Assembly (NCBI GenBank): GCA_973895155.1
Contig: OZ316891.1
Coordinates: 12,274,771 to 12,338,770 of the forward strand
Reading direction: 5' to 3'
Source: Marsupella aquatica
Lineage: Eukaryota; Plantae; Marchantiophyta
DNA length: 64,000 nucleotides
Shown here piece by piece: positions 1-44,894 of this stretch (positions within the stretch are counted from its first letter, which is position 1; each line of letters starts with the position of its first letter). Position numbers and translations under genes: made by a program. The notes beneath the pieces were generated by a model. The model was not told the DNA's origin. It made no database searches and saw nothing but the letters and a program-made list of their open reading frames with translations.

Positions 1-366
1 TGTGTTCGGGGATGTCGCTGTGTTCGGGGGACCGTTCATGTTGAGTGAGGGACTAAGTTGCATGTTCGAGTGAGGGACCGTTTTTGCGTGTTCCTTTACA
101 ATCAAAGTGTTCATAGTGGACAGGATGTTTGAGTGAGGGCACTGTGACAGCAACAAAAACGTCTCGACAGTTAGGGCGCTGTGGAAGCAAATAGAAGCTC
201 TCGACAACTCTCACAGCTTTTCTAGAATGTTGCGAATGACAGTATGGCCCAGACATACTCCATTAAATTAAATGGCACTTTGGAACTTTATATAGGTGTG
301 CAAATCAATACATCCAGGCGCAATCGCACTGAGCACAAATCAAACTATGATCCTCAATCTCAACTC

Positions 367-1029
367 CTACTGTAACTTATCTCCTGCAAAGCGATTCACC
401 AAATTTGTGATAGCCTTGCCTTTTGGCAATAGAACATTGATTCTCCTGGCTTTCTTGGCTGGCTGTGGTGATGGAGAGAAGTCCGTGAAGCTATCCAAAA
501 GATACAAATCAAAATCTTCTGTGGGTACCGGCTTCCTCACAGAGAGACATGCACTGACCCAATTAAAGCTGACGAACTTCACTCTCCCACTCCAGTAGTA
601 AAACTCCACAGTCCCCCATTCATACTTTGCCAAAATCGTCTGCCAATTCTTGGCAATCACATGAGTCGTCATTGAACTAAACCGGTAACAAATTGAACCT
701 CCACACTGGACAAATCGTCGCTTCAATAAATCAAATCGGCCTGGGCTGAATTCATCAGGAATCAGCAGTGCATACATGCCCTTGAATGTGTCTCGAGTCT
801 TGGCAAGTGCATGAGCCAGTGCATCCATCTCAGCTTTGACGTCTGTCTCAGCGTTTGGCTCCAGCTTAGTGCAATTTGCCTCCATCGCAGCATTTGCCTC
901 CATTTGAGTGGTCGCCTCAATCGCATTCTCATGAATGGACTCAATGTCTGCAACCAATGACTCTATGGCTGCCGCAGACTCCATCTCTGCCACCACATCA
1001 ATCCCTGCATTTGAACTCTTCTCTGCCAT
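367..1029 (-). CDS. BRCT-domain protein (acidic Ala/Glu-rich N-part, BRCT, basic NLS-like tail) inside the transposon
   Basis: Uninterrupted ORF, first ATG at 1029. FKGMYALL...FVQCGGSI...THVI...VSFNWVSACLSVRKPVPTEDFDL fits BRCT hallmarks (GG, THV, WxxxC). PAKKARR follows. Possible upstream exons at ~1370-1470 and ~1200-1290. Confidence 0.7.
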   Translation of the reverse strand: MAEKSSNAGIDVVAEMESAAAIESLVADIESIHENAIEATTQMEANAAMEANCTKLEPNAETDVKAEMDALAHALAKTRDTFKGMYALLIPDEFSPGRFDLLKRRFVQCGGSICYRFSSMTTHVIAKNWQTILAKYEWGTVEFYYWSGRVKFVSFNWVSACLSVRKPVPTEDFDLYLLDSFTDFSPSPQPAKKARRINVLLPKGKAITNLVNRFAGDKLQ

Positions 1030-1849
1030 CGCTACCAGCAAGCAAGAAAGCCTTACAAAAGATGAGAAATGAACAATGAGGCGCCTTGCACAATTGTCCC
1101 CGCCACTTTGAGAAGGGGCGTTGTGATCGATTTATGCTACAAATTAGGAAATTGCTCCAAAAGAGACAAAGTATGAAAACAGACAAAACATCCCACCATT
1201 CTCGGTCCATCACAAAATCGAGTTGGTGCCTTGAGCAAACATTGGGAACTCGGGAGGCTTTGGCTATGGACAGAAGGCAAACCAAAGAGCTGCAACGGGA
1301 GGGGTAAGTGAAGAAACTTCAGTCAATTGGAAACGGACTGTCAATCGTTAGCTCACTCATGTTAAGGTTACTTGATTGAGACTAATGCCTCCGTGAATTG
1401 CTTTGTTGCAGCAAGGATCAGAGGCCTTGAGGTCCTTGTCGTTGGCTCCTCGCGCGTTCGACTTCCTCCTTCCTGGCTCAGAACAGTACTAAGAGTGAAG
1501 GACGAAAACGGGTCAGTGCACGACAACTCATTCTTGTGCAAAGTTTCAATTCTATTGAATCATACTCATTGATGTCGACTCTGCCACTTTCTTACATTCG
1601 TTTCTCTTCATGGTCAACAGCCCACAATCGATAGTCGATAGTATATGATGAACTCGAGCGATTCTGGATGACAATAGTATTCCATAGTAACTCCTGATAT
1701 GCTTATGGCGATTTGCTTTCTTTCCAGCTTTATGAGTGACAGGAAACTAGATTCCAGAAAAAACCTTTTGTGATCGATGCTGTCTTGCACGAAGTGCTCA
1801 CATCAAACTGATACTCTGGGAAGAACGTTAATTTAAGTTTTCTCCTCCA

Positions 1850-2481
1850 TTACAAGTCATACTTCGGGATGAAACCTATACCAATAGAATTCTGGTCTCG
1901 TGCCAGGAGAAATTGACAGATTTTTCTTCACAGAAGGCAACTCACACGTGCAGCGATTGCTTCCTCAGCCTTCAACACTGCTGCCAAAATTGTGTCTTCC
2001 GGAATTTCATTGGACTTCGGATGCCTTCTGGCAACGTGAAGATCCTGTTACTGGATAATGATAATGAGTAAAGCCAGCTTCTCTAACAACTGCTAAAATG
2101 TGCATCCTTTGTTGGATCCTTATACTTTTCTTGTAACAAAATTCTTTTTCGTTAGACTTCTGCATCTGAAATAGAAACAAAATCCATGATAAAATCCTTT
2201 TGAGAGGCTTCGATTGAAGAATGAGTACTCACAAGGTAGTAGGCTGACTTGAACAGTTTATCACAGAGTGGACAGCATCAAACCTTCACAAGCTCAAAAC
2301 CAGTAACTCAGTACTGTAAGTACTCAGCTACTCCGTGACTTAGGATAAACAAAGTTGATGAGAAGTAGCTGCTCGTCATGCTCTTACCGTCTGTGCTTTG
2401 ACGGACTGCTGCACTTGAAGTTGTTGCTTGCGCTGAGATTGGTGAAGCTTTTGCTGTCGATGTTGGACTTTGCTTTGAACC
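1850..2481 (-). pseudogene. Captured multi-exon 3' fragment of a host gene (…CRSLTKKNFVTRK|DLHVARRHPKSNEIPEDTILAAVLKAEEAIA|ARDQNSIGIGFIPKYDL*)
   Basis: Short AG..GT-bounded exons at about 2388-2481, 2253-2303, 2127-2166 and 1952-2044 join in frame. The last acceptor appears mutated (CTG instead of CAG). Family not confidently named. Confidence 0.55.
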
Positions 2482-2713
2482 TACAACATAATCTCATAGG
2501 TGTGGATGGTCTGTAAGATAGCAAATTATTGTAAACAGAGCTAATTAACCATCTCGGAACTTCGCAGCAGGGAAACATGTGTCCTGATTTTACAAAGATT
2601 GGCCATCATAACTGGAGATTGGAGATGAGGGTTGTCCATTTTCTCGAGGGTTATTGTAATCCCTGGATTCCAGAAAAAACCACTTGTGATCGATGCTGTC
2701 TTGCACGAAGTGC

Positions 2714-3092
2714 TCACATCAAATTGATCATTTTTTTCAGAATTTTCCGCTTTTGTCGATCTTCCACCTGCAACGCTCTTTCTGTAAGGACTTGTTTCAA
2801 ACGGCACATTGACTTACGCAACTGGAAACAGACAGACATTGTAAGGTGAGTCCACATTCCCAAATTATCTATATCCAAGATTCTACACAAGAAATTATTC
2901 CACGAACTACTCCGATGAACAGGAAGACCGTTACCTTTGACATCCGTTCTGAATTTGGCATTCGGAGGCTTTGCGACAGCAACATCTGTTTTTGTGAAAG
3001 TAGCATGTTCTTTTCCTTTAGAAACACATACCACAGCTTGTGCAGGTCGTCCCACGACTTTAGTCTCAGTTCAGATGCTTTCCAGCCTCTGC
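2714..3092 (-). pseudogene. MRPL47: Captured C-terminal two exons of mitochondrial ribosomal protein L47 (uL29m)
   Basis: Exon 3092-2935 [37 protein letters not shown]...[12 protein letters not shown] intron, exon 2821-2714 LRKSMCRLKQVLTERA...KKMINLM*. This is the MRP-L47 signature. No N-terminal transit-peptide exon was recognised. Confidence 0.85.
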
Positions 3093-3548
3093 CTGCAAAA
3101 AAACACACATCGGACATGACCAAACACGATGATCTGACCCAGAAAATAACTCAATTGATCATACAGTTCATGGAGTCCATAGCACAAGCATTACACGAAG
3201 ACATTCAGCTCTCCCTAACAGAATTGTTGTCCGTCCGGCAGCAGGAGAAATTGCAACGGACATAGTAGGAAACCGGGCGAGGTAAAAAACCCTAATTTTG
3301 TGAAGTTGCTTGTTTGACCATTGAAACCGGGAGTCCTGATTGCTGTAGAGAGGTTCAAGGCCCCTGCCTCTTCTTCTATGGTCGCAACCAGGGTCGACCA
3401 TTCCCACCTTTCATTTCATGCCTTTTTTGAGTGTTTTGTTGTAGGCAGCCAGGGTTAAAAGTGCTATGTGAAGGAGGTTGCTACCCCTGGCATTGACAGA
3501 CCGTATTCATTGACAGACCGTATTCTCCTTTGTAGGAATTAGAGAGCT

Positions 3549-5547
3549 ATGGCAAGACATCCTCGTGGGACAGCTAATGGGAAGCGATGGACTTACTCTC
3601 TTAAGTTCAAGCTGGACGTGATTCGGGAATACAACCCCAACATCAAAGGGCAAGGCTTTGTGGCACTCAGCAAAAAATTTGGAGTGCCCCGGTCTGCTTT
3701 GAGAGGGTGGTACGAGAAGAGGGCAGAGTTGCAAGCCTCTCTTAAGGACGATAAGATCTTAACACGGAAATCACGCCGGTTAAGGGGAGGTGGACGGAGA
3801 CCATTGCTGCCCGGAATGGAGGAGGAGCTCCACACTTGGATCCTGGCACGGAATGAGAAGGGATTGAGGGTGAAGGACATGTACATTGCCAAGATGGCCT
3901 TGAAGATTGCAGAGAGGATGGCTACCAGCACAACAAATGAGGAGCTCGCGACATTTAAAGCGTCAACAGGTTGGTTGGATAGGTTCAAGAAGCGACACAA
4001 CCTGGTGTCAAGGAGACACACAACAGATCGCAAGCTACCAGAGAATGCTGTTGATTTGTGTCGGGCATTCATTCAAGAGTGCCAAGAATTGATTGACACT
4101 AACAAAATTAAGCCCAAAAACATTATCAACATGGATCAAGTTCCGCGGTACTATGAGACTAAGCCAAAGTCAACTATTGCTACCAGAGGCATTCAGACGG
4201 TGATGATGACAAAGGGTGGTACCAGCCATAAACGATTCACCATAGCTTTTTCCATCACAGGAGAAGGCAAGCATTTGAGACCACACATCCTCATCTCAAA
4301 AAGGAAGAATAAACCTGAAGTCCCGTTGGGCGTGTTTGTCGATGTGAACCAGACAAGTATATTTTTTTCAATATCTATTACTTGCAAACTAAGCTTCTCT
4401 TTTGTAATTTTCATGACTTTTTTAGGGTTGCCAGTAAACAAACTCTTTTCTAATTATTGACTGTGGGTTTTATACTATGCAGGTATGTGGAATGAACGGA
4501 TATGTTGGGAACACTTCAATGAAATAGTGATGAAGCGAGGTGAGACCCAATTCTACCGGGAGCCCACTCTATACATCATTGACGCATATGGACCCCACTT
4601 GAAGTGGCCCAAGGCACATGCAAAGGTACTGGAGGACTACAATGTGTTTGTGCGGATTGTGCCGGCGAATTTGACCTCCCTCTTGCAGCCTCTTGATGTT
4701 GCAATGAACCGGAGCTATCAGGCAGATTATGCAACACAATATGACACTTACATTGCAGATGCCTTAATTGATCCAAATTTGCAGACAACTGCAGGAAACC
4801 CTAAAGTTCCGGCTGCCAAAATGGTGGCAGAATGGGCACTTTCATGGATTGGAAATTGTCAAAAACAGGACGTGGCAAATGCATTTAGGGTAAGGTGGAG
4901 AAGTTTTGACATTATTTGTAAGTACAAACATTTTATGTGGAAACATTTGGCAAATATTTTCTAGTGAATCCTAATTAAGTTGATGCTTCTTGTGTTGTCA
5001 GGTTTGTGGCTTGGTGCCCAGCTCACAATTTGCAGTGGAAAACCTACATCTGCCACTAAGAGCTTTGTATGCAACAGACTTGGACTTGGCTGAATGGAAT
5101 GAACAGTATGGGCATGTACTTCACGAGAGTGAAGAATTGCGTCCCACTCTCGTCATCGAGCCGCCTACATGGTTTTGTCCTGAAGAGGATTACTCTTTGT
5201 TCAGATGCCTTCTTCGTTGCAAGGGTATACACGGAAGTGATGTGGACGAATACCTTGACACCTATGTCATAAAGCTGGTGGTGCACATGTCAATGTGTCC
5301 TGATCTTGATGACATTTTTGATGATGACGCTGCAGCTGACATGGTAAGTGGAGAAATGGTGGCAGGTACCTTGGCAGTGTTTGCAGCTTCAAACTTGGAG
5401 GAGTGGGAGATTGAGCTCACGGAAGTGAACCTTGACAACAAGATCATCCAAAATTTTGTGTACAAGGCGGAGGATCCTGTCAAGCGAGTTCATTTAGCAC
5501 GAACAGGGAATTACTTTTGTGTTCAGCTGAATGAAGGATTGATGTAG
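3549..5547 (+). CDS. pogo-family transposase (Brinker-like HTH + CENP-B/Tc5 HTH + DDE_1) with OTU-like C-terminal extension; exons 3549-4356, 4483-4889, 5002-5547, ~586 aa
   Basis: YSLKFKLDVI..KFGVPRSALRGW, FKASTGWLDRFKKRH, catalytic NMDQ / IIDAYGPH / LQPLD with DD37D spacing, and AFR|VCGL. Two GT-AG introns join the three ORFs in frame without stops. Confidence 0.92.
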
Positions 5548-6070
5548 TGCATGCACATCATCCTTCTTGGGTGACAACCATCTTGGGCATGTGTTCCTTG
5601 TGTCACTATGAGAGTTATGAGATCGATATTAGGACTGATTCTTCAATGAGAGTAAAATTTTGTAACTCTCATAGGTACACAAGGTGAACTTGTCCAAGCA
5701 TTTTGACTTCATTTTATGTGTTCATGATGCTTCCATACAAAAATGTTTCTCTTTTGAGGCAATTGAACACTTGTGTTTATGTTTTAAATTATGTTGTTCA
5801 CAATAGTGACCTTTTGGAACTACAAATATGTCATAATTAAATATGTTTTACATAATTATATGTTTACCAAGTGATAATGACTTGGTATATTTTTTGCATG
5901 GTTTGTAAGGTCTTATTTTGTGCAACAAATTAATTTGTTCTAGACTACTCATGACTTGTTGCATTTCAGTGTTTAAAGTAGCTACATTTTCCCAATTTAA
6001 CACTTATCTCTAACACATTGGTTGTATCCTATAATTCCAGCTTGTACCCCAAATTCATATAATGCCTAAA

Positions 6071-6233
6071 TTCGAACACAACGCCACAATTCGAACACAA
6101 CGCCACATGCTAAAAAATCATAAACAGAGTCTCAAAACTCGAACACAACGCCCTGGGCTCACTATTCGAATATAGCGCCCCTTGGCCCACTATTCGAATA
6201 TAGCGCCCGGGCGCTGTGTTCGGGGGAAGACGG
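6071..6233. repeat. Right TIR and subterminal transposase-binding-like repeats
   Basis: TCGAACACAACGCC x3, ACTATTCGAATATAGCGCCC x2, palindrome GCGCCCGGGCGC, then the terminal GCGCTGTGTTCGGGGGAAGACGG|TA. Confidence 0.85.
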
Positions 6234-8799
6234 TAGGGCTAGAAAACTTTCTTTGCAACCAAAAGAAGGGGCAGACAGGATCCACTGCAATAATACTGAC
6301 ACCAGAGAACCCATGAAAGCTTATTGCTCGTTGTAGGTGTTGTCCTCCATCTATATACTTTTCTTGTGAGTCAAATGCTCTGTTGAAAGAAAGGGGGGGG
6401 GAGGGGAGCAGAGCCCCAAATTCAAAATTACATGGCTAAGGACTGGAGCCGTGTCAAGTGATACCTACTCACAGTTAAAATGATCCAAGGCGGCTGATTT
6501 TAAGTCATGTTGCATGCCAACTGATCCCGCAACTGAGCGAAAGTCGCTGAGGACCTCAACAACTCGCTGCATGTCCTTGCGCTTAATGGTTGCCTCAATC
6601 ACCTAGCACTTTGACGATTCTCCTGTGCAGACCTTGGAGACTTGATCCAACATAATTTTCTGGTTCTAGTTTTTGCTGCTCTTTCCACCTGAATGCCCTC
6701 AGCAGATTTTCTATTACAGACACAATTTTGAATCTGGCATATTCATAGAACACTATCTGGCATTTTGAATTCCCAGTTGTGTGTCAGTTCCAGCACTTCT
6801 GTTCTCATTGCTTCAATTTCAGCACTTCTATTTTCATTGCTTCAATTTCAGCACTGTCTTTACAAAGACTTCCTGCATTGGCGGATGTGTACTTTGCTCA
6901 AGAGAATGCAAGGATGGAGTTTTGTCTAATCAATCCTTATCCTGCTGGCTCTGTTTAGATATATCCAGCAAAGCTCAGTGTCTCAGTCTCATTTCCCTCC
7001 TCTCTAAATGGGCAGTTCACCATTGCAATTGCAGAGCACACTCTAAGTAGCTATGGATAAAGGCAAAGGTTCACTGCAGCTGGATTAGGAGATAGCAAAC
7101 ATTATTGGACTAGCAACTCAATGATTGAAATGTGTCATGCCATTGAGAGTATACTTTAGTATATCGTACATCTAGGTATTGAAGTTTTGTATGTGTGCTA
7201 TATGAGCATTAAGTATTTAGTTTGAGTTTGTGCAAGGGATAGTTATCCCCTTGTGTTGGCTCAAAGGCCCCATCTTTCAATGTTGAGCCTTTGAACACAA
7301 GCTCAGGTGGCTATGGTGTGGCTGACCAAGTTGTGTGCATGTAACGTGGATTTCTTGAAGCACAAGGATCGCATCAGGTAGGATTGTTGTTGGGTTGACA
7401 TTGATCGTTGTTTGATTTGCAATATTGAAGATTATTCTGGGTTCCATTTGTACTCCATTCTCTTATGTTTGTGTTGTTGGATTATGACTATGCTTGGATT
7501 ATTATGTGTGACAAACAATGCATGTTGTGTAGTGATATGTATGCGCACAACAAATGCTCTACTCAATCTTCCACTCGGTTTTGCAGATTGATGGTTTGAA
7601 ATAGTTCATAGCAAGGTACTGCACAGGAAAGTGAGTATTGCTCGATGGATTTCTGTCATTGTGCATTTGTGCCAGCCTAACGCCTGGCCTCCATTTGTAT
7701 CTTTTGCCAGTTGAATGCATGTTTTCTTTTTTAGCCAATTTGCAATTGTCATTGTAAGAGGAAAATGTTAGATCTAGCATGTCAGAAAGGTTCAATTTTG
7801 TTTGATGAAATGATTTTCTCGCTTCCTCCTGCTGCATCTGTTCAGTGTGACTTTCATTCAATTGCAGACACACCCTCAACATCATTCTTAAAAGTTCTTC
7901 AGATTGACCAGGGATGCTAACAATATTGTTGGAGCCTGTTACATAATGTCAAGGGATTGCACAGAGCTATTACATGTTTCTTTGTAGAAATGGTCAGTTT
8001 GTGGTAGTGTTTGTTTTGGAGAAATTTCTGGCCTGCGTAATTTACTTGCTGGCTGGTTTCCTATGGTGGAGTGGTACATGTTGTGTATAATGTTTGTTAG
8101 AATGTTGAAGGACCCCTGCATCTGGAAGACTCTCATCTCCCAAGGGCCCCAAAAGCTCAGAAAGGGGACACATCACGCGGTTGCATAAACAAGGCACCTT
8201 ATAGAACTGCAAATAAATACCGCAATTTCTTGATCAAAACAATCTTGGCAGAAAAGCCTAATGTGGCAGCCTTTGAATGAAATACAACCAATCATTTGAC
8301 CTTAACAAAAAATGCCTCCATTGAAAAAATAACTTCTATAATACAGGGTTGCACCAAAAATTGCTGTGGTTGTTGTTTAAAAATGCAGGGCCGTTTTGCA
8401 TGAGAACAATACAAACAGGAAAAACCGGAAGGAATAAAGCCTGAAAAAATTCATTCCTACACTAAAGTACTGCAACCCTCACACAGGGCCACGACCATGC
8501 CTCCGCCTGACACCACACAGAATGACATTGGAGGGAAGGAGGCAGGCCCAAGGAGCCCCAACGGGAAGCCAGGCCCGACTAGCAGGAGCAAGGGAGGAGA
8601 TTCAAATTGCGAGTGGGGAGGAAGGAGGCATGACCAACTCGCAAGGGCAGGAGGAGCCAGGCCCAACTCGCAACTAAGGAGCGCTGACTCCCAACGAGGG
8701 TGCTACGACCAGGGAGCAAGGAAGGGAGAGTGACAACCCAATGGCTACCCCCTCGCCTATGACCCTGACCTGCACCCCGCCTTGCCTGACTGCTCTCAC

Positions 8800-9150
8800 C
8801 CAACGACATTCATTTACTTATCTTGACAACCATTTTGAATGTACTTATCGTCTTTTTCCTTAATGACATCTTTTCTCTTAACGTCGTCTTGGGCAAAACA
8901 ACATCTTGGGCGGCACGACATCATTTTGCTTCACAAAATCTTGGGCAACATGACATCTTTTTGCTTAACAACATCTTGGGTGACACGACATCTTTTCTTG
9001 TAACAACATCTTGGGCGACACAATATCTTTAATTTCTCTTAACGACATCTTAATTGGGCCACATGACATCTTTTCTCTTAACAACATCTTGGGCCACACA
9101 ACATCTTTTCTCTTAGTTACGATATATTTTTTCTCCACTACATCTTTTGT
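8800..9150. repeat. Degenerate tandem array of ACATCTTGGGC/ACGACATCTTT units
   Basis: About 7 imperfect ~35-45 bp units, e.g. CAACATCTTGGGCGACACAATATCTTT. Preceded by a purine-rich GC segment at 8500-8790. Confidence 0.7.
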
Positions 9151-9380
9151 GCAACTCATGGTATTGAGCTAGTAAGAAATAATATTGTAGTGTAGTATTG
9201 GTAGGTGGTCTTTGTCCGTCCCATACTACCATATCAAACTGTATAGGATTACAGAGGAAGGATGGGGACGGGGCCCCAGATTTTTTAAGTACCACAACTC
9301 AGATATGGCAAGTGAAGAACACTCAGGCCACGGCTGGCAGCCAAAGTCATGACACAACTTGCAATCTTCACCAAGAGGAA

Positions 9381-10230
9381 TATGCTTGATGGGATCCTTG
9401 CCAAATTAAACAAATTTACGTGGTAGGCCCTTATGAAACTTTTGTTACAAACTAGGCCCCCTCTGACACTTTTGTGTCAAATGTTCTTGTAAAGTTTCTA
9501 TAAAGAGATGTAGCTTGATATTATCATCAATAAGAGCTACTATGCAATTAGAGTCAAATCAATCTGAATGACAAACTGCACCATTGGGGAAGCCGCGGAG
9601 TAATGGCGGCCGTCGTGCAAATTGCGAGTTCCTAACATGTCTTTAGGTTTGAACTGCTACCACGCGGTCCGTGGTTGCTTCGTGCAACTTATACACAGGG
9701 TTTGCATGATGTTTTGACATTTCTTTTGTTATTGTGTCTAAGTATGGAAGGAATCAGGCTCTACTTTTGACCATTGGCCCCTACTACAAAGACGTTCAAA
9801 AGTTGTCCAAGTGTGGAAGGAACCAAGGATCTTTTACTATTGGATGTTTGGCCTTGTTGCAACTTTCAAACATTGTCTAAGTGTGAAACAAAGACAACAT
9901 GGAGTTAATCACAACTGGAAAATTTTGCTAGGCAACCTACAAGAACTAGACTTAATGTTATACAAACCCTCTATCATGTAGCAGCGGATCCCCTAAAACT
10001 CTAATCATGTGAAGACATAAATCATTATGTCTTCAAGCATAGAGGTACAGGCGGTGGACTATGGCGCGGTGCACGATGGAGTGGGATGGGAAATGTATGG
10101 TTGATCATGCAATTAGGCACCACATAAGAACCATGTGTACGGAAACCACATAGGGAGCCAGTTTGTAACAAAAGTTCACTGAAGGCTTATCACGTAAATT
10201 TATTTTGGCAAGGGTTCGATCATATTTATA
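9381..10230 (+). mobile_element. Non-autonomous TIR element, copy 1
   Basis: ~80-bp imperfect inverted ends (TATGCTTGATGGGA..TTGCCAAA..TTTACGTG..TTTTGTTACAAACTAGGC versus its complement). The interior is homologous to 14543-17434. Confidence 0.7.
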
Positions 10231-10389
10231 CCTCCCTTCACCAACAGTGTCCCTCAAGTAGGCTCGTTCATACCCTGTTCAAACTTGGGGCCGTCTGCAA
10301 GGATTTGTTTGGGCCAAGAGGCAGGACCCATCAAGTCTACTTTTCCCTCTAGAGTTGAGGATAATAGTAGGGTGGGCTTTGATCCAAGT

Positions 10390-39112: not shown

Positions 39113-42100
39113 TATTCAGAGACAAGAAGATGAAAGTAGAACATTCGCCAACAACTGGAGGTTCCCTCCAACTTCCATTACCTTATAGAGTCCCTAAGGA
39201 CTCGATCTATTACATGCGGTTAGGTTGTTAGTAACAACCTAAGCTTCGGTTAGTTAGGACTAACTAACCCTACTACCATGACTTGGGTTAGTGTTAACTC
39301 CATATTACAACACTCCCCCTTGGTTACTTGAATAGCATAATAAAGTAACCATCTTAAGGAGTAATACTAACCCTAGGTGGATTATTTTGGTACCCATAAG
39401 GAGAGTGTGGTCTCATTAAACCCCCCCCCCCCCCGCTTTCTTCTGGGGGAAAGAGTACCACCACTTTGTACATTGCATGGGTCCGTATTGAAATGCAGAT
39501 GCAGAGTAGAAAAGAAAACTAAGAGTATTGCGCTGCAGCATTCCTAATAAGGTATGTGACCTAAAACTGGCTTATGTTACGTCTTTTTACGAAGGGAAGG
39601 AGTTTAGCATGGAGATGACGGGTCGCTGCGTCTCCATGTGTAATGCTTCGTTATTTTCGTATAGACGGTGAAGGTAAATGGCTGCTGTGTCTTCTATAAT
39701 CGTGCAGAAGATGGAGGCGGATCGCAATGGTCATGTCTGCTCTGTGTGCAGTGTGGATAGGCTTCTCATGCCAATGCCGTATGAATGTTCCTTATGCAAA
39801 ATTGGTGGTAATGGCTTTGTGAATAAGTCTGCTCGGTTGTCTCGGCTGGGTATCCATTCGACCTGAATTTGATCACCGTGCTGTTCATGTGTATAAAAGA
39901 ATTTCGGTGAGATGTGTTTAATTCTGTCACCTTTTATGAAGCCATGAGCAATTTGATCCACACAGGGGCGGTTGTCTTCGTAAATAGTAGTGGGCTTTTG
40001 AAATTGTTGGCGACCAGTGTGCTTGTGGATGTGATGGAGCATGCTGTGTAACCATACACATTCTCTGCAGGCTTCATACAGAGCTATGATTTCCGCATGA
40101 TTAGAGGATGTTGTGGTTAGTGTTTGCTTGGAGCTTCGCCATGAAATTGCAGTGCCACCTTGAAGAAAAACGTACCCTGTTTGTGATTTGGCATCTCCAG
40201 GGTCAGAGAGGTAGCCGGCATCTGCAAATCCAATCAATTTGTCTTCAGCATCTTTCGGAAAAAATAGACCAACGTCGACTGTGCCCTTCAGGTATCGAAA
40301 AATCCTTTTCAGCCCATTCCAATGGCGGATGGTTGGCTGAGAACTATGTCTGGCCAATAAGTTGACAGCAAAAGAGATGTCGGGACGAGTCTGATTAGCC
40401 AAATACATAAGGGCGCCAATGGCATTGGTGTGTTGACAGGGTGAGCTGCTTGCATATTGAACTGTCGTAAAATCTTCTCTGTGTAGGTAGATTGACTAAT
40501 CAGAATACCATTGTGCAGGTAGTCGAACTGAATGCCGAGGCAGAAGTTAGGTGGACCAAGGTCCCTCATTTCGAATGTGCCCTTCAGAATACTGAGTGTA
40601 TGGGCTGTGAGTTGTGGTGTCCCGAATATATTCAGGTCATCTACATAGATAGCTATTATGACAAATTCCTCTGCCTGAGATTTTAGAAATAGACAGGGTG
40701 CTAGCTCATCATTTATAAATCCCAAAGCTAACATTTCAGCTTGGAATCGTTTATACCACATCCGGCCACTTTGCTTTAGGCCGTACATTGAACGCAAGAT
40801 TTGTACGGCATATTCCATTTGAGGTCTCTTGCTACGTGCAATAGGCACTTGTTGTGTAGTATGTGGTGGGTATAGCCCACCAGAGCAGACAGTAGGTCCT
40901 GAATTTGTAATTTGCGCAATTAAGGGCTCAGTAGGAGCCATCTGGATCATACCAGATCGTAGTGATTGGACTGATATGCCTGACTTCTCCCCCTGAATGT
41001 GGAAAGATAATCTATTAAGAAGCTCTGGAGGAGCTTTCATGTAAATTTTGGTATCTAGCATGCCATACAGGTAGGCTGTTATTACATCCAGGATGTGCAT
41101 GACTAGCTTGTGTAGTAAAGCAAACGCTATCATGTAGCGGTATGTAATGGAGTCCATCACTAGGGAATGTGTCAGGTCATAGTCTTGACCTGGGATTTGG
41201 GTGTAGCCCTTCGCCACTGGCCTTATATCTAACTACTTCGCCCTTGGCATTTCTCTTTCGGATGAAGATGAATCTGTAGCCGGTCAGATGGCTGTGGGTG
41301 GGAGCTGGAGTGATTGGTCCAAAAACCTGGCGTTTGATCAAAGAGTCAAGTTCAGAGTTAATAGCCGCTTCCCATTGGGGCCAGTCTGGACGAGATTGAC
41401 ATTCTGTTACTGTCAATGGATCTGGAGTATCATTGGTTATCTCTTCTGATATCAGATATGCAAATGCATAATCTATGGTAGTGGTTTCTCGTTTCCAGAC
41501 TTTGCCTGAATGCATATATTGGATGGCTATTTCGTCATTGTCGTTAACTAAAGTTGGTTGGGGTCCAGGGGATGCAGGTGTGGGTCTTAGGGCTATAGGT
41601 ACAACAGCTGTGGTCTGGCGTTGCCTGGGTTGGCTATCTTTCGAGCCTAGTGGTCTGCCCCTTTTTGCCTTAGGGGGGGCTTCGGTAGCTAGTCGAGTGG
41701 GTTGGATTCGTGCTGGTGCATTGGCAGCTGGTATTAAGGACCGAGTGACATTTGCTGCATCATTAAAGGCGTCTGGGAGTTTCTCTAACATTTGTTGAAG
41801 GTGGAGGATTTTCTGTACTTCTGCTTCGGTTTGGACTGTCCGTGGGTCATGCTGGAAAGGGGGTTTTAACTGCCATTGTAATTCCGGAGTATGGACAAGG
41901 GGACTTGATGTCTGGTTCTCCATTAATTTGGGGAAATCGTCTTCAATAAAATCACAATCAAGGAACCGTGCCTTGAATAGATCTGCTGTAGATGGTTCTA
42001 AGTATCGAATAATCGATGGTGAGTTGAATCCTACATATATCCCCTGTTGTCTCTGTGGGCCCATCTTGGTGCGTTTGGGTCCCAAAATGGGGACCAGTAC

Positions 42101-44894
42101 CAAGCAGCCGAAGATGCAAAGGTGAGAGACATCAGGTGGGATCCCGAACAATAAATGGTGTGGGGTGTACTTGTTATAGGCAGATGGTTTGTATCTGATG
42201 AGGGAGGAGGCTTGTATGATGGCATGACCCCATGCTGATATAGGTAAATTGGTCTATAGCAGTAAAGGTCTGGCTATCATCTACAGTCGCTTGATTAAGG
42301 ACTCAGCTATTCCATTCTGGCAGTGTACATGGGGGACAGGATACTGAACATCGACCCCTGCAGTTTCGCAGTATGTGTCGAATGTCCGGGATGTGAATTC
42401 ACCGGCATTATCGACTCGCAGGGTGCGGATTGGATGATCTGGAAATTGTGATCTTAGTTTCAGTATGTTGGACAATATCCGAGAAAATACAAGGTTTCTG
42501 GTTGATAGCAAGGAGACTTGGGACCATTTGGAGGAAGCATCAATGAGTACTAGGAAGTATCGGAAGGGGCCTGATGGGGGGTCTATAGGGCCGCACACAT
42601 CGGCATGTAGGCGTTCAAGGAATCGGGGTATAGAATATATATGGTTTTGTCAATGGAGGGGCGGATGACAAGTTTACCCTGGGAACATGCTGTGCAGATT
42701 TGTTTACTTTGGGACGGGTGTACGCCAAGTGGGATGCCAACTGTGTCCTGAATGATTCTGTGGTACATGGTGGTGCCCGGATGACCAAGGCGGAGATGCC
42801 ATTGGTCTGTGAGTGTTCTGGTTGCCTTTTCTGTGTGATATGAATATATGTGAGGGATATAGAGGCCAGGAGGATGGTTTAACAGGGTCTCTTTGATTAT
42901 GAGTCCTATATTAGTTTCGACCAAAATGTGCAGTACCTCCTGTCGATCTTGTTTGCTGGTATGGATGTGTAGGTTGTTGTCCCATATATCACGAAAACTT
43001 ATCAAGTTGCGGGTGGCTGTAGGGGCGTATATGGCTGATCGAATGCGGATGGTTGTTCCTCCAGGAAATCGGACTATGGCTGGGCCATTGCCCTCTTCAA
43101 TGTGATTCTGTCCAGTGATGGTTGTGACAGGGCGATTGGATCGAATGATCTTGGTGAAGTATTTCTTGTGGCGTAGTATTGAGTGGGATGTTCCGCTGTC
43201 CACAATACAATATGTGGGAGCAGGATCGGCAGGGAGGTCGCTTTGTAAACTAACAGTATGAACCTCAGGTAAAGGTGAAGAGACTACGTACTGGTCAATT
43301 TCATTGGGTGCCTCTAGGAAATTGCCGTGACGTCCGGGGCCTAGTTGATGCAAATTATCTTGATATAGCTTCACTAAGTGGGCAGGGGCACGACAATCTT
43401 TTTGTGTGTGACCTTTAGTTCCACATCTAAAACAGGTGGGAGTGTCAGACTTATCTTTGTTGTAGGTGAGGTAGCCTCGACCTCTGCCGCGGCCGAAGCT
43501 GCGGCCTTGTCCTCTGTTGCCTATCCGGTTCCAGGTTCGCCTCGGTGATGTTTGCCAGTCGTTGCTCCTGCCCATGTCCCGGTCAAAGCGGCCTCGTCCT
43601 CTTCCTGTCGAACGTCCTCTGCCGCCATAGAAACTTCTGCCTCTGCCTCTAGTGCTGCCTTCTCCTCTGTTGAAGTGGGTCTCGGTCTTGGTTGGTGGTG
43701 CAGCACTGCCGGGTGGTCGAGTTTTGGCATTTTCAAGGAGCAAGATCTGGTGCTTTTCTGCTAATAGCATGTAAGCGATTAGTTCAGAATATCTGGTAAA
43801 GTTCATGTTACGGTATTGTGCCGAGAGTACCAGGTTTGTAGCATGAAATGTCGATAGCGTCTTCTCGATTTGTTCTTCGTCTGTTACAGGGTGATCGCAT
43901 ACTGCTAGCTGTGAGGTGATACGAAATAACTCGCTGTTGTAGTTGGCAATTGTAGCATGGTCTTGAACTCGTAAATTGATCCAATCGTGGCGTGCTGCAG
44001 GGAGTGATATAGTTTTCATGTGATCAAAGCGAGATTGTAGGTCCTCCCAGAGTAAACGTGGGTTATATTGATTCAAGTACTGTCGCTTCAATGGGGCTGC
44101 CAAGTGATGACGAATGAGGATGAGGGCCTTCGCCTTCTCTTGAAGAGTGCATCCAGCGTCTGTGGTGATCGTATCTTGGAGAGATTTGGAGCTGAGATTG
44201 CTTCAATATCCAGGGACCACGATAAGTAGTTGGCCCCATCGATTGACAGTGCCTCAAATAAAAGTTTCTCTATGGTGGTCATTGTGTCTATCTGGGGTAG
44301 TCTATGAATGTGAACTGTTGGAAATCAATGTCGAATGTTCAGAATGCTATAACTGTCGGATTTAGATGCCTTGAATATTTTCGTGTGGATTTCGTGGATG
44401 GATGACTGTGGCGCTCTTCCTTCGTAAAAGAGAATGTGGGCAATTTGATGGAATGCGAAGTCTCGCTGCAGGAATGATCGCTGATCTCTGGTGGGGGTCA
44501 ATTAATCTCAAGTGTTGGGTGACGCTTCACAGAGTTCGGAAGAAAATCACAAAGATGAGTCGTGGATACAATCGCTTTTTGGGTAGTGCGCAGTATGGCA
44601 TTGATGGCTTGTGATTCGTGGACAGTCAGTTCATGCGCCAGTGTATGAGAAAAAAAATTTCTATGCTCAGCTTTGGCAGCTCGTGCTGATAACGTATTCA
44701 GAGACAAGAAGATGAAAGTAGAACATACGCCAACAACTGGAGGTTCCCTCCAACTTCCATTACCTTATAGAGTCCCTAAGGACTCGATCTATTACATGCG
44801 GTTAGGTTGTTAGTTACAACCTAAGCTTTGGTTAGTTAGGACTAACTAACCCTACTACCATGACTTGGGTTAGTGTTAACTCCATATTACAACA
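39113..44894 (-). mobile_element. Full-length Ty1/Copia LTR retrotransposon, Bianca-like, frameshifted
   Basis: 200-bp LTRs at 39113-39312 and 44695-44894 with 3 mismatches. TG...TA ends on the minus strand, TSD GTTTG (39108-39112, 44895-44899), PBS CGTTATCAGCACGA (44694-44681), PPT AGGGGGAG (39320-39313). Confidence 0.95.
39731..44282 (-). pseudogene. gag-PR-IN-RT-RNaseH polyprotein of the Bianca-like element, broken into at least 6 ORFs
   Basis: NYLSWSLD, CFRCGTKGHTQKDC zinc knuckle, CIVDSGTSH protease, WHLRLGHPG, RVDNAGEF integrase, YGLKQSG/YVDD RT, FADAGY/YEDN/ADLFTK RNase H. Confidence 0.93.

What the first reader, a model, noticed from the sequence alone, without database searches (positions are those of the whole stretch)
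5170..5547. OTU-like pseudo-deubiquitinase domain fused to the transposase C-terminus
Seen: after AFRVCGL the protein continues ~180 aa, including DYSLFRCL, AGTLAVFAASNLEEWEIEL and VHLARTGNYF. Known: OTU proteases show DGNCLFRA, WGG..EI.A.S......I.V and I.L.Y...HY. Inference: an OTU fold whose catalytic Cys (Ser here) and His (Asn/Tyr here) are lost, which could act as a ubiquitin-binding or chromatin-targeting module. I do not recall this architecture for pogo transposases.
Basis: inference. Interest (0 to 1): 0.72.

Follow-up and report, generated by a model that had tools for sequence, protein, structure and literature searches.

The report
Pogo transposase with dead OTU domain
A multi-copy jumping gene in a plant genome encodes a DNA-cutting enzyme whose tail is predicted to fold like a ubiquitin-removing (OTU) enzyme but lacks its catalytic residues, and relatives in water moulds, an alga and liverworts keep the same tail, so it likely serves as a binding module and not as an enzyme.

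Summary
Observation confirmed; interpretation mostly supported. The window holds a multi-copy pogo (Passer-type) DNA transposon of about 6.26 kb with an open three-exon, 586-aa DD37D transposase gene. Its last ~128 residues (5155-5538) are predicted, from a 30-sequence alignment (pLDDT 91), to form an OTU domain: best match OTUD3, Z 13.6, rmsd 2.5 A; the top 33 rows are OTU-type proteins. The catalytic Cys site is Ser470 and the His site is Tyr576 (not Asn575). This is not decay of one copy. Of 36 relatives found by the N-terminus alone, 29 carry the domain. Ser holds the Cys site in 58 of 69 aligned domains, and none has Cys and His together. Copy variants are mostly synonymous (29 of 40). 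The domain is acidic in 40 of 40 sequences. Residues that grip the ubiquitin tail are mostly lost, so ubiquitin binding is unsupported and untested. OTU tails are known on Ginger1 and Helitron proteins. I found none in print for pogo, although a catalogued Phytophthora Passer element carries this domain unannotated. The element also carries a Pol-lambda-like BRCT ORF. Splicing rests on homology, not RNA.

The parts
1..100 (+). Left subterminal repeats of the element; the left TIR lies about 25 bases outside the window
   Evidence: TGTGTTCGGGG repeats seen in the sequence; contigs of runs X1, X2 and X4 join 6221/6222 to position 1 through 10-11 extra letters (table 5c)
367..1029 (-). Passenger ORF (220 aa from ATG 1029) with a single BRCT-like domain, nearest solved relative DNA polymerase lambda
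   Evidence: Pfam LIG3_BRCT E 1.7e-4, below cut-off; PDB best hits Pol lambda E 0.017 and 0.13, TdT 0.77; covered as deeply as the element; common variant at the stop is TAG to TAA
2714..3096 (-). Host-gene fragment: the last two exons of mitochondrial ribosomal protein L47; no upstream exon seen; likely captured
   Evidence: Pfam MRP-L47 E 5.5e-22; three-frame translation upstream; 66-nt duplicate at 1747-1812
3549..4356 (+). Transposase exon 1: BrkDBD/CENP-B_N-like HTH, HTH_Tnp_Tc5, first catalytic Asp196 (4134-4136)
   Evidence: Pfam HTH_Tnp_Tc5 E 7.7e-16, BrkDBD 0.001; Asp in 33 of 33 homologues
4483..4889 (+). Transposase exon 2: DDE_1 core with Asp303 (4581-4583) and Asp341 (4695-4697), DD37D
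   Evidence: Pfam DDE_1 E 2.7e-5, over cut-off; each Asp in 32 of 33 homologues; spacing 37 in 24, 35 in 14, 38 in 1
4890..5001 (+). GT-AG intron joining the DDE exon to exon 3 (inferred from homology)
5002..5154 (+). Conserved linker, residues 406-456 (CGLV...F...LHxPL...W)
   Evidence: Pro423, Leu424 and Trp437 in 39 of 39 homologues, His421 in 38 of 39
5155..5538 (+). Predicted OTU-fold domain without catalytic triad, residues 457-584, net charge -15
   Evidence: AF2 pLDDT 91; OTUD3 Z 13.6, rmsd 2.5, 119 aligned; Foldseek; charge
5194..5196 (+). Ser470 at the catalytic Cys position
5512..5514 (+). Tyr576 at the catalytic His position
   Evidence: RTGNY lines up with OTUD3 R178YGE plus the next residue at the +11 offset; two homologues have His in this column
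6066..6235 (+). Right subterminal repeats, right TIR ending at 6233 (reads CCGTCTTCCCCCG on the other strand), and TA at 6234-6235
   Evidence: repeat family D3; 62, 48, 21 and 31 contigs in four runs leave the element here into flanks that agree only 0.35-0.41 (table 7)

Best explanation
This is a multi-copy pogo (Passer-type) cut-and-paste transposon whose transposase ends in a predicted OTU domain that lacks the catalytic Cys and His and likely works as an acidic protein-binding module, not as a deubiquitinase. Shown: open HTH-DDD transposase frame, right TIR and TA, many insertion flanks, family-wide retention of the domain, loss of the triad, net negative charge in every sequence. Predicted: the OTU fold. 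Inferred: an ancestor of this clade captured a small OTUD-type deubiquitinase, as Ginger1 and Helitron elements did; activity was lost before the sampled relatives diverged; the fold was kept. Most likely job (inferred, untested): the acidic domain (median net charge -12), held on the core by the invariant LHxPL/W linker, binds a basic surface. The first candidate is the transposase's own basic DNA-binding and catalytic part (medians +16 and +8), which would tune assembly or restrain activity; the second is histones at the target. Odds: identity as a dead OTU kept under selection about 0.85; the non-ubiquitin binding role about 0.5.
For: Fold: AF2 with 30 sequences, pLDDT 91.1, five models 89-91; VIA-align top 33 rows, all with Z>=5, are OTU-type, best OTUD3 Z 13.6; Foldseek PDB rows shown are all OTU proteins, best E 1.5e-4; Pfam OTU in 5 of 59 members, best E 1.4e-4. 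Dead site: among 76 domains the Cys column is Ser in 58 of 69 aligned and Cys in 1 fragment; the His column is His in 2 of 61, both with Ser at the Cys site. Retention: 29 of 36 relatives found by exon 1 carry the domain; 21 of 21 long proteins hit by the domain profile have DDE_1; named hosts are Phytophthora, Chara, Riccia and Calypogeia. Selection: 29 of the 40 listed copy variants in 5170-5530 are synonymous, against 21-28% expected. Co-descent: DDE and OTU distances correlate, rho 0.51, 0 of 2000 permutations as high. Charge: domain negative in 40 of 40, HTH positive in 34 of 34.
Against: No partner was tested; the binding step rests on charge, fold and retention. The domain is the fastest-evolving part (mean pairwise identity 0.20 against 0.43 for DDE), and most of its conserved columns are core residues, which also fits a plain folding constraint. 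The Glu of the WGG..E motif is kept (Glu 30, Asp 5 of 39; Ala in this copy), and an acidic surface would also suit ubiquitin's basic tail (recalled). Only 12 of 21 supported OTU-tree splits are in the DDE tree; 9 conflict. The window's own sequence has no Pfam OTU hit, and sequence profiles found no OTU in the PDB. The 40 variants are the best-supported 40 of 136. 7 of the 36 relatives lack the domain: 4 end early, 2 are fusions with other genes, 1 has a divergent tail.
Confidence: 0.55

Rival explanations
1. The dead OTU is a ubiquitin reader: it binds ubiquitinated histones or repair proteins and steers or shields the transposase.
For: OTU fold closest to small OTUD enzymes; conserved Glu/Asp in 35 of 39 and an acidic helical arm in 39 of 40; Louis et al. 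call ubiquitin reception a likely role of inactive DUBs (PMC4654579, passage); a Pol-lambda-like BRCT ORF in the same element hints at links to DNA repair.
Against: Trp of the WGG motif absent in 39 of 39; the two Gly positions are Gly in only 7 and 6 of 39; the His-loop aromatic that contacts the ubiquitin C terminus (PMC3705208) is Tyr/Phe in 10 of 39 and Ala here; Drosophila CG3251 (Cys-to-Ser) showed no detectable chain binding.
Confidence: 0.2
2. The domain is a relic kept only because the transposase folds or packs against it; it has no partner of its own.
For: Low identity, only 6 of 126 columns conserved at 0.6 or more, mostly core; other Passer elements have shorter transposases, 385-493 aa in 12 of 13 PasserA rows.
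Against: A terminal domain is easily lost by a stop codon, yet 29 of 36 relatives keep it; synonymous excess among copies; conserved negative charge in 40 of 40.
Confidence: 0.15
3. The domain keeps a hidden hydrolase activity, such as cleaving ester-linked ubiquitin, using the conserved Ser.
For: Ser in 58 of 69; weak Ub-Ser esterase activity in the pseudo-DUB OTULINL, and residual esterase activity in a Cys-to-Ser DUB (bioRxiv 10.64898/2026.10.20.760496, sections 9 and 14).
Against: In that study the loss of Cys and His together nearly abolished esterase activity (section 6), and both are lost here; the other residues in this column (Thr, Asp, Asn, Gly, Pro) fit a helix cap (inference); Drosophila Otu and CG3251 were inactive with His retained.
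Confidence: 0.05
4. Exon 3 is a separate gene or a chance frame, not part of the transposase.
For: No direct evidence.
Against: Single-chain homologues of 550-610 aa run straight through this joint; exon 3 lies inside the TIR and is covered like the DDE exon.
Confidence: 0.03

Closest known systems
Passer family of the pogo superfamily (Gao et al. 2020, PMC7386202; passages, section 8 and Table S1 rows seen), above all Phin-PasserA-2-SAR
   Same: BrkDBD/HTH_Tnp_Tc5 plus DDE_1, TA target site, TIR starting CCGTC; the first 13 TIR bases equal those of Phpa-PasserA-1-SAR. The printed part of Phin-PasserA-2-SAR (612 aa), read by eye on the other strand, gives nearly the C-terminal peptide of P0049, a member of this family.
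   Different: The paper lists only HTH_Tnp_Tc5 and DDE_1 and never mentions OTU. This copy is DD37D, about 6.26 kb (pogo range given as 1.2-5.2 kb), has two introns and passenger sequences, and sits in a plant; the Passer range given is animals and stramenopiles.
Ginger1 transposases with C-terminal OTU, and animal Helitron OTU domains (Bao et al. 2010, PMC2836005; passages)
   Same: OTU domain fused to the C terminus of a transposase; proposed link between transposition and the ubiquitin system.
   Different: Different superfamily (Gypsy-integrase-like, or rolling-circle); those domains are recognised as pfam02338, whereas this one is below Pfam detection and lacks the triad across the family.
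OTUD-type deubiquitinases (OTUD3 4BOU, OTUD2, OTUD1, yeast Otu1/Otu2) and nairovirus OTU
   Same: Same minimal fold, 119-123 residues aligned at 2.5-2.8 A; His-loop register matches.
   Different: 9-15% identity; Cys, His and the third triad residue replaced; fused to a transposase.
Inactive OTU proteins: Drosophila Otu/CG3251 (PMC4654579, passages), FAM105A/OTULINL and vertnin (named as inactive in PMC10318531, passages)
   Same: OTU fold kept without canonical activity; the same Cys-to-Ser change as Otu/CG3251.
   Different: Those are host genes; Otu/CG3251 keep Asp and His. Here the pseudo-enzyme rides on a mobile transposase.

Membership tests
pogo superfamily | CENP-B-type HTH domains plus DDE_1 core with DDxD triad | tested here: met
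pogo superfamily | TIRs and TA target-site duplication, multiple insertions | tested here: met
   Right TIR, TA and many flanks; left TIR seen only through contig joints, it lies outside the window
Passer family | BrkDBD/HTH_Tnp_Tc5 DNA-binding domains and CCGTA/CCGTC TIR start | tested here: met
Passer family | DD35D spacing (almost all members) | tested here: inconclusive
   This copy is DD37D; relatives 37 in 24, 35 in 14, 38 in 1; Table S1 has one DD37D Passer
Passer family | Placement inside the Passer clade on a tree with reference transposases | not tested
OTU fold (PF02338 clan) | OTU three-dimensional fold | tested here: met
   Predicted model; Z 13.6, rmsd 2.5, 119 aligned
OTU fold (PF02338 clan) | Pfam OTU score over the curated cut-off (23.3 bits) | tested here: not met
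   Window: no hit; best relative 22.8 bits, E 1.4e-4
Active OTU deubiquitinases | Catalytic Cys-His(-Asp/Asn) triad | tested here: not met
   Ser470, Tyr576, Cys578; no homologue shows Cys and His together
Active OTU deubiquitinases | Cleavage or binding of ubiquitin | not testable with these tools
Ginger1 transposons | Gypsy-integrase-like transposase with YPYY, zinc finger and GPY/F motifs | tested here: not met
   The transposase is HTH_Tnp_Tc5 plus DDE_1

The most novel reading that the evidence does not exclude
A clade of Passer/pogo transposons spanning oomycetes and streptophyte plants carries a repurposed pseudo-deubiquitinase that reads ubiquitinated chromatin or acts as a decoy against ubiquitin-based silencing, and the plant branch has added a Pol-lambda-type BRCT protein that recruits end-joining repair to its own cuts: a cut-and-paste element with a captured kit for steering host repair.
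Probability: 0.15. Interest if true: 0.8.

Novelty: new variant of a known kind. Interest (0 to 1): 0.52.

Why it matters
OTU and Ulp1 proteases recur on unrelated transposons and are assumed to help by cutting ubiquitin or SUMO. Here a widespread clade keeps the OTU fold under selection with the triad gone, so catalysis cannot be the whole reason for these captures. It gives a small, clean test object: an open-frame transposase with a removable terminal domain. It also shows that Pfam-only surveys of pogo miss a conserved domain, and that Passer-type elements reach land plants and can carry passenger ORFs.

Tried and rejected
No whole genome is held. Single-sequence AF2 was useless, pLDDT 38.8. 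Exon 3 alone found no long homologue in the word-seeded search and no meaningful PDB sequence hit; profiles A1, A2 and A3 found no OTU chain in the PDB by sequence, nor did P0037. No RNA holder listed; this says nothing on expression. A profile comparison with one giant-virus OTU-like protein gave probability 0.1 (a single insertion-rich sequence, uninformative). The metagenome DNA scan found no related locus. No variant at the Ser470 or Tyr576 codon was among the 40 listed of 136, a weak test as both lie near the ends of the stretch. Rejected: Asn575 as the His site (register); a domesticated single-copy gene (many flanks); decay of an active OTU in this copy only. Literature searches without a pogo-OTU report; no pogo-BRCT report; vertnin-transposase search empty. 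The FAM105A paper is not held. Repbase and most subscription journals could not be searched, and sequence cells in the Gao supplement are cut at about 400 letters.

Full report
Observation. The frame 4984-5547 is open and holds the peptides quoted. With GT-AG introns at 4357-4482 and 4890-5001 the gene 3549-5547 gives 586 residues, the only one of four combinations tried that reaches the 5547 stop. Pfam finds HTH_Tnp_Tc5 (E 7.7e-16) and DDE_1 (2.7e-5) in exons 1 and 2 and nothing in exon 3. The three catalytic Asp residues (196, 303, 341) are present and conserved in 33, 32 and 32 of 33 homologues; the spacing is DD37D. Both splice joints match contiguous sequence in homologues. No RNA was available, so the splice is inferred.

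The element. Contigs of four public runs laid on 1-7000 drop from a summed depth of several hundred over the transposase to about 75 beyond 6319 in X1. Depth here is not copy number. The clearer sign is that 62, 48, 21 and 31 contigs leave the element behind 6236 into flanks that agree only 0.35-0.41; some of these may be short non-autonomous copies. The right end reads TA-CCGTCTTCCCCCG on the other strand, with subterminal repeats at 6066-6207. Contigs in three runs join this end to window position 1 through 10-11 letters, so the left TIR lies just outside the window and the element is about 6.26 kb. Exon 3 is covered like the DDE exon. The host is a plant by its other genes (my reading), and the nearest named relatives of exon 3 are liverworts.

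The family. Exon 1 found 36 proteins of 474 residues or more. A profile of the C-terminal domain built from other sequences finds it in 29 of them; four of the rest end early, two are fusions to other genes, one has a divergent tail. All 21 long proteins hit by the domain profile carry DDE_1 and none carries PF02338. Named hosts are Phytophthora species, Chara braunii, Riccia sorocarpa and Calypogeia fissa; many are unnamed. Over 40 sequences, DDE and domain distances correlate (rho 0.51, 0 of 2000 permutations), and 12 of 21 supported domain-tree splits recur in the DDE tree while 9 conflict. This fits one old acquisition but does not prove it. Of the 40 best-supported copy variants (of 136) in 5170-5530, 29 are synonymous against 21-28% expected.

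The fold. A single-sequence model failed (pLDDT 38.8). With 30 aligned sequences the model reached 91.1. Against 48,161 solved chains the 33 rows with Z of 5 or more are OTU-type proteins, led by OTUD3 (Z 13.6, rmsd 2.5 A, 119 aligned, model 52-179 on chain 62-190); other papain-like folds score under 5. Foldseek agrees. Independent sequence support is weak but present: Pfam OTU matches 5 of 59 family members, best E 1.4e-4, just under the cut-off. Profile searches of the PDB by sequence found no OTU.

The active site. At the +11 offset of the structural match, model residues RTGNY fall on OTUD3 R178YGE and the residue after it; the paper calls this the His loop, which leads to the catalytic His (PMC3705208, passages). 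So Tyr576, not Asn575, holds the His position, and two homologues do have His in that column. Among 76 domains, the window's included, the Cys column is Ser in 58 of 69 aligned, Cys in one fragment that lacks the His region; the His column is His in 2 of 61, both with Ser at the Cys site. The tools gave ranges, not residue pairs, so the register is inferred from offsets and motifs. The Trp of the WGG..E motif is absent in 39 of 39 homologues, the His-loop aromatic is Tyr/Phe in 10 of 39, and the Glu is kept as Glu/Asp in 35 of 39.

Mechanism. The domain is net negative in 40 of 40 sequences (median -12), the HTH region positive in 34 of 34 (median +16), the DDE region median +8. The linker before it has invariant residues. 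I read it as a captured deubiquitinase fold that lost catalysis early and now binds a basic surface, most likely the transposase's own core, otherwise histones. This last step is inference. Ubiquitin reading remains possible (0.2), but tail-gripping residues are mostly gone, and a Drosophila Cys-to-Ser OTU neither cut nor detectably bound ubiquitin chains (PMC4654579, passages). A hidden esterase is unlikely (0.05): a preprint finds weak activity in OTULINL, but loss of both Cys and His nearly abolished it in the enzyme dissected (bioRxiv 10.64898/2026.10.20.760496, abstract and sections 6, 9, 14).

Comparison with what is known. The element fits Passer in DNA-binding domains, TIR start and TA (PMC7386202, passages and section 8). 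Table S1 lists Phin-PasserA-2-SAR with a 612-aa transposase annotated only as HTH_Tnp_Tc5 and DDE_1; its printed sequence, read by eye, gives nearly the C-terminal peptide of family member P0049. So members are catalogued but the domain was missed. 'OTU' occurs 0 times in that main text and in that table, and 0 times in the main text of PMC7325037. OTU tails are described for Ginger1 and Helitrons (PMC2836005, PMC6431247, passages). Searches showed no pogo-OTU report; Repbase was out of reach. Earlier notes of this scan list OTU fusions on Spy, MULE and Ginger transposases and one pogo-like element of marine microbes; these are unchecked leads, and sequence look-ups found no look-alike.

Passengers. 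On the other strand, 367-1029 encodes a 220-aa protein with one BRCT-like domain, nearest to DNA polymerase lambda (E 0.017; Pfam BRCT families below cut-off). It is covered as deeply as the element, and of 8 listed variants 4 are silent, one of them at the stop. The PolX BRCT binds the end-joining machinery (recalled), so a repair-recruiting role is a lead, not a result. A two-exon piece of the MRPL47 gene lies at 2714-3096 with thinner cover.

Verdict. A real, family-wide pseudo-OTU on a Passer-type pogo transposase: a new variant of a known theme. Interest 0.52.

Noticed in passing
window 367-1029 (-): Passenger ORF inside the transposon with a single BRCT-like domain closest to DNA polymerase lambda (PDB E 0.017); multi-copy with the element, stop codon kept. 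No pogo-BRCT report in searches. May deserve its own follow-up.
   Followed up: partly
window 2714-3096 (-) and 1747-1812: Last two exons and intron of a mitochondrial ribosomal protein L47 gene inside the element, with a 66-nt duplicate of the 3' end upstream; likely host-gene capture in a subset of copies.
   Followed up: partly
window 5002-5154: Linker with invariant LHxPL and Trp437, more conserved than the OTU domain itself; may clamp the domain to the catalytic core.
   Followed up: partly
window 5582-5698: 36-nt inverted repeat (81% complementary, 45-nt loop) just after the transposase stop codon.
   Followed up: no
window 6085-6318: Contig depth several times that of the rest of the element, with other sequences joining at 6163-6204: likely a family of short non-autonomous elements sharing this end.
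   Followed up: no
window 39731-44202 (-): Copia-type LTR retrotransposon remains in four frames (gag, integrase, RT, RNase H by my reading).
   Followed up: no
window 8854-9146 and 9375-10234: 35-nt minisatellite-like array, and a separate element with about 53-nt inverted arms at 9408-9460 and 10153-10205.
   Followed up: no
proteins P0030 and P0037: Two unnamed homologues have Ser at the Cys site and His at the His site, the same state as Drosophila Otu.
   Followed up: partly
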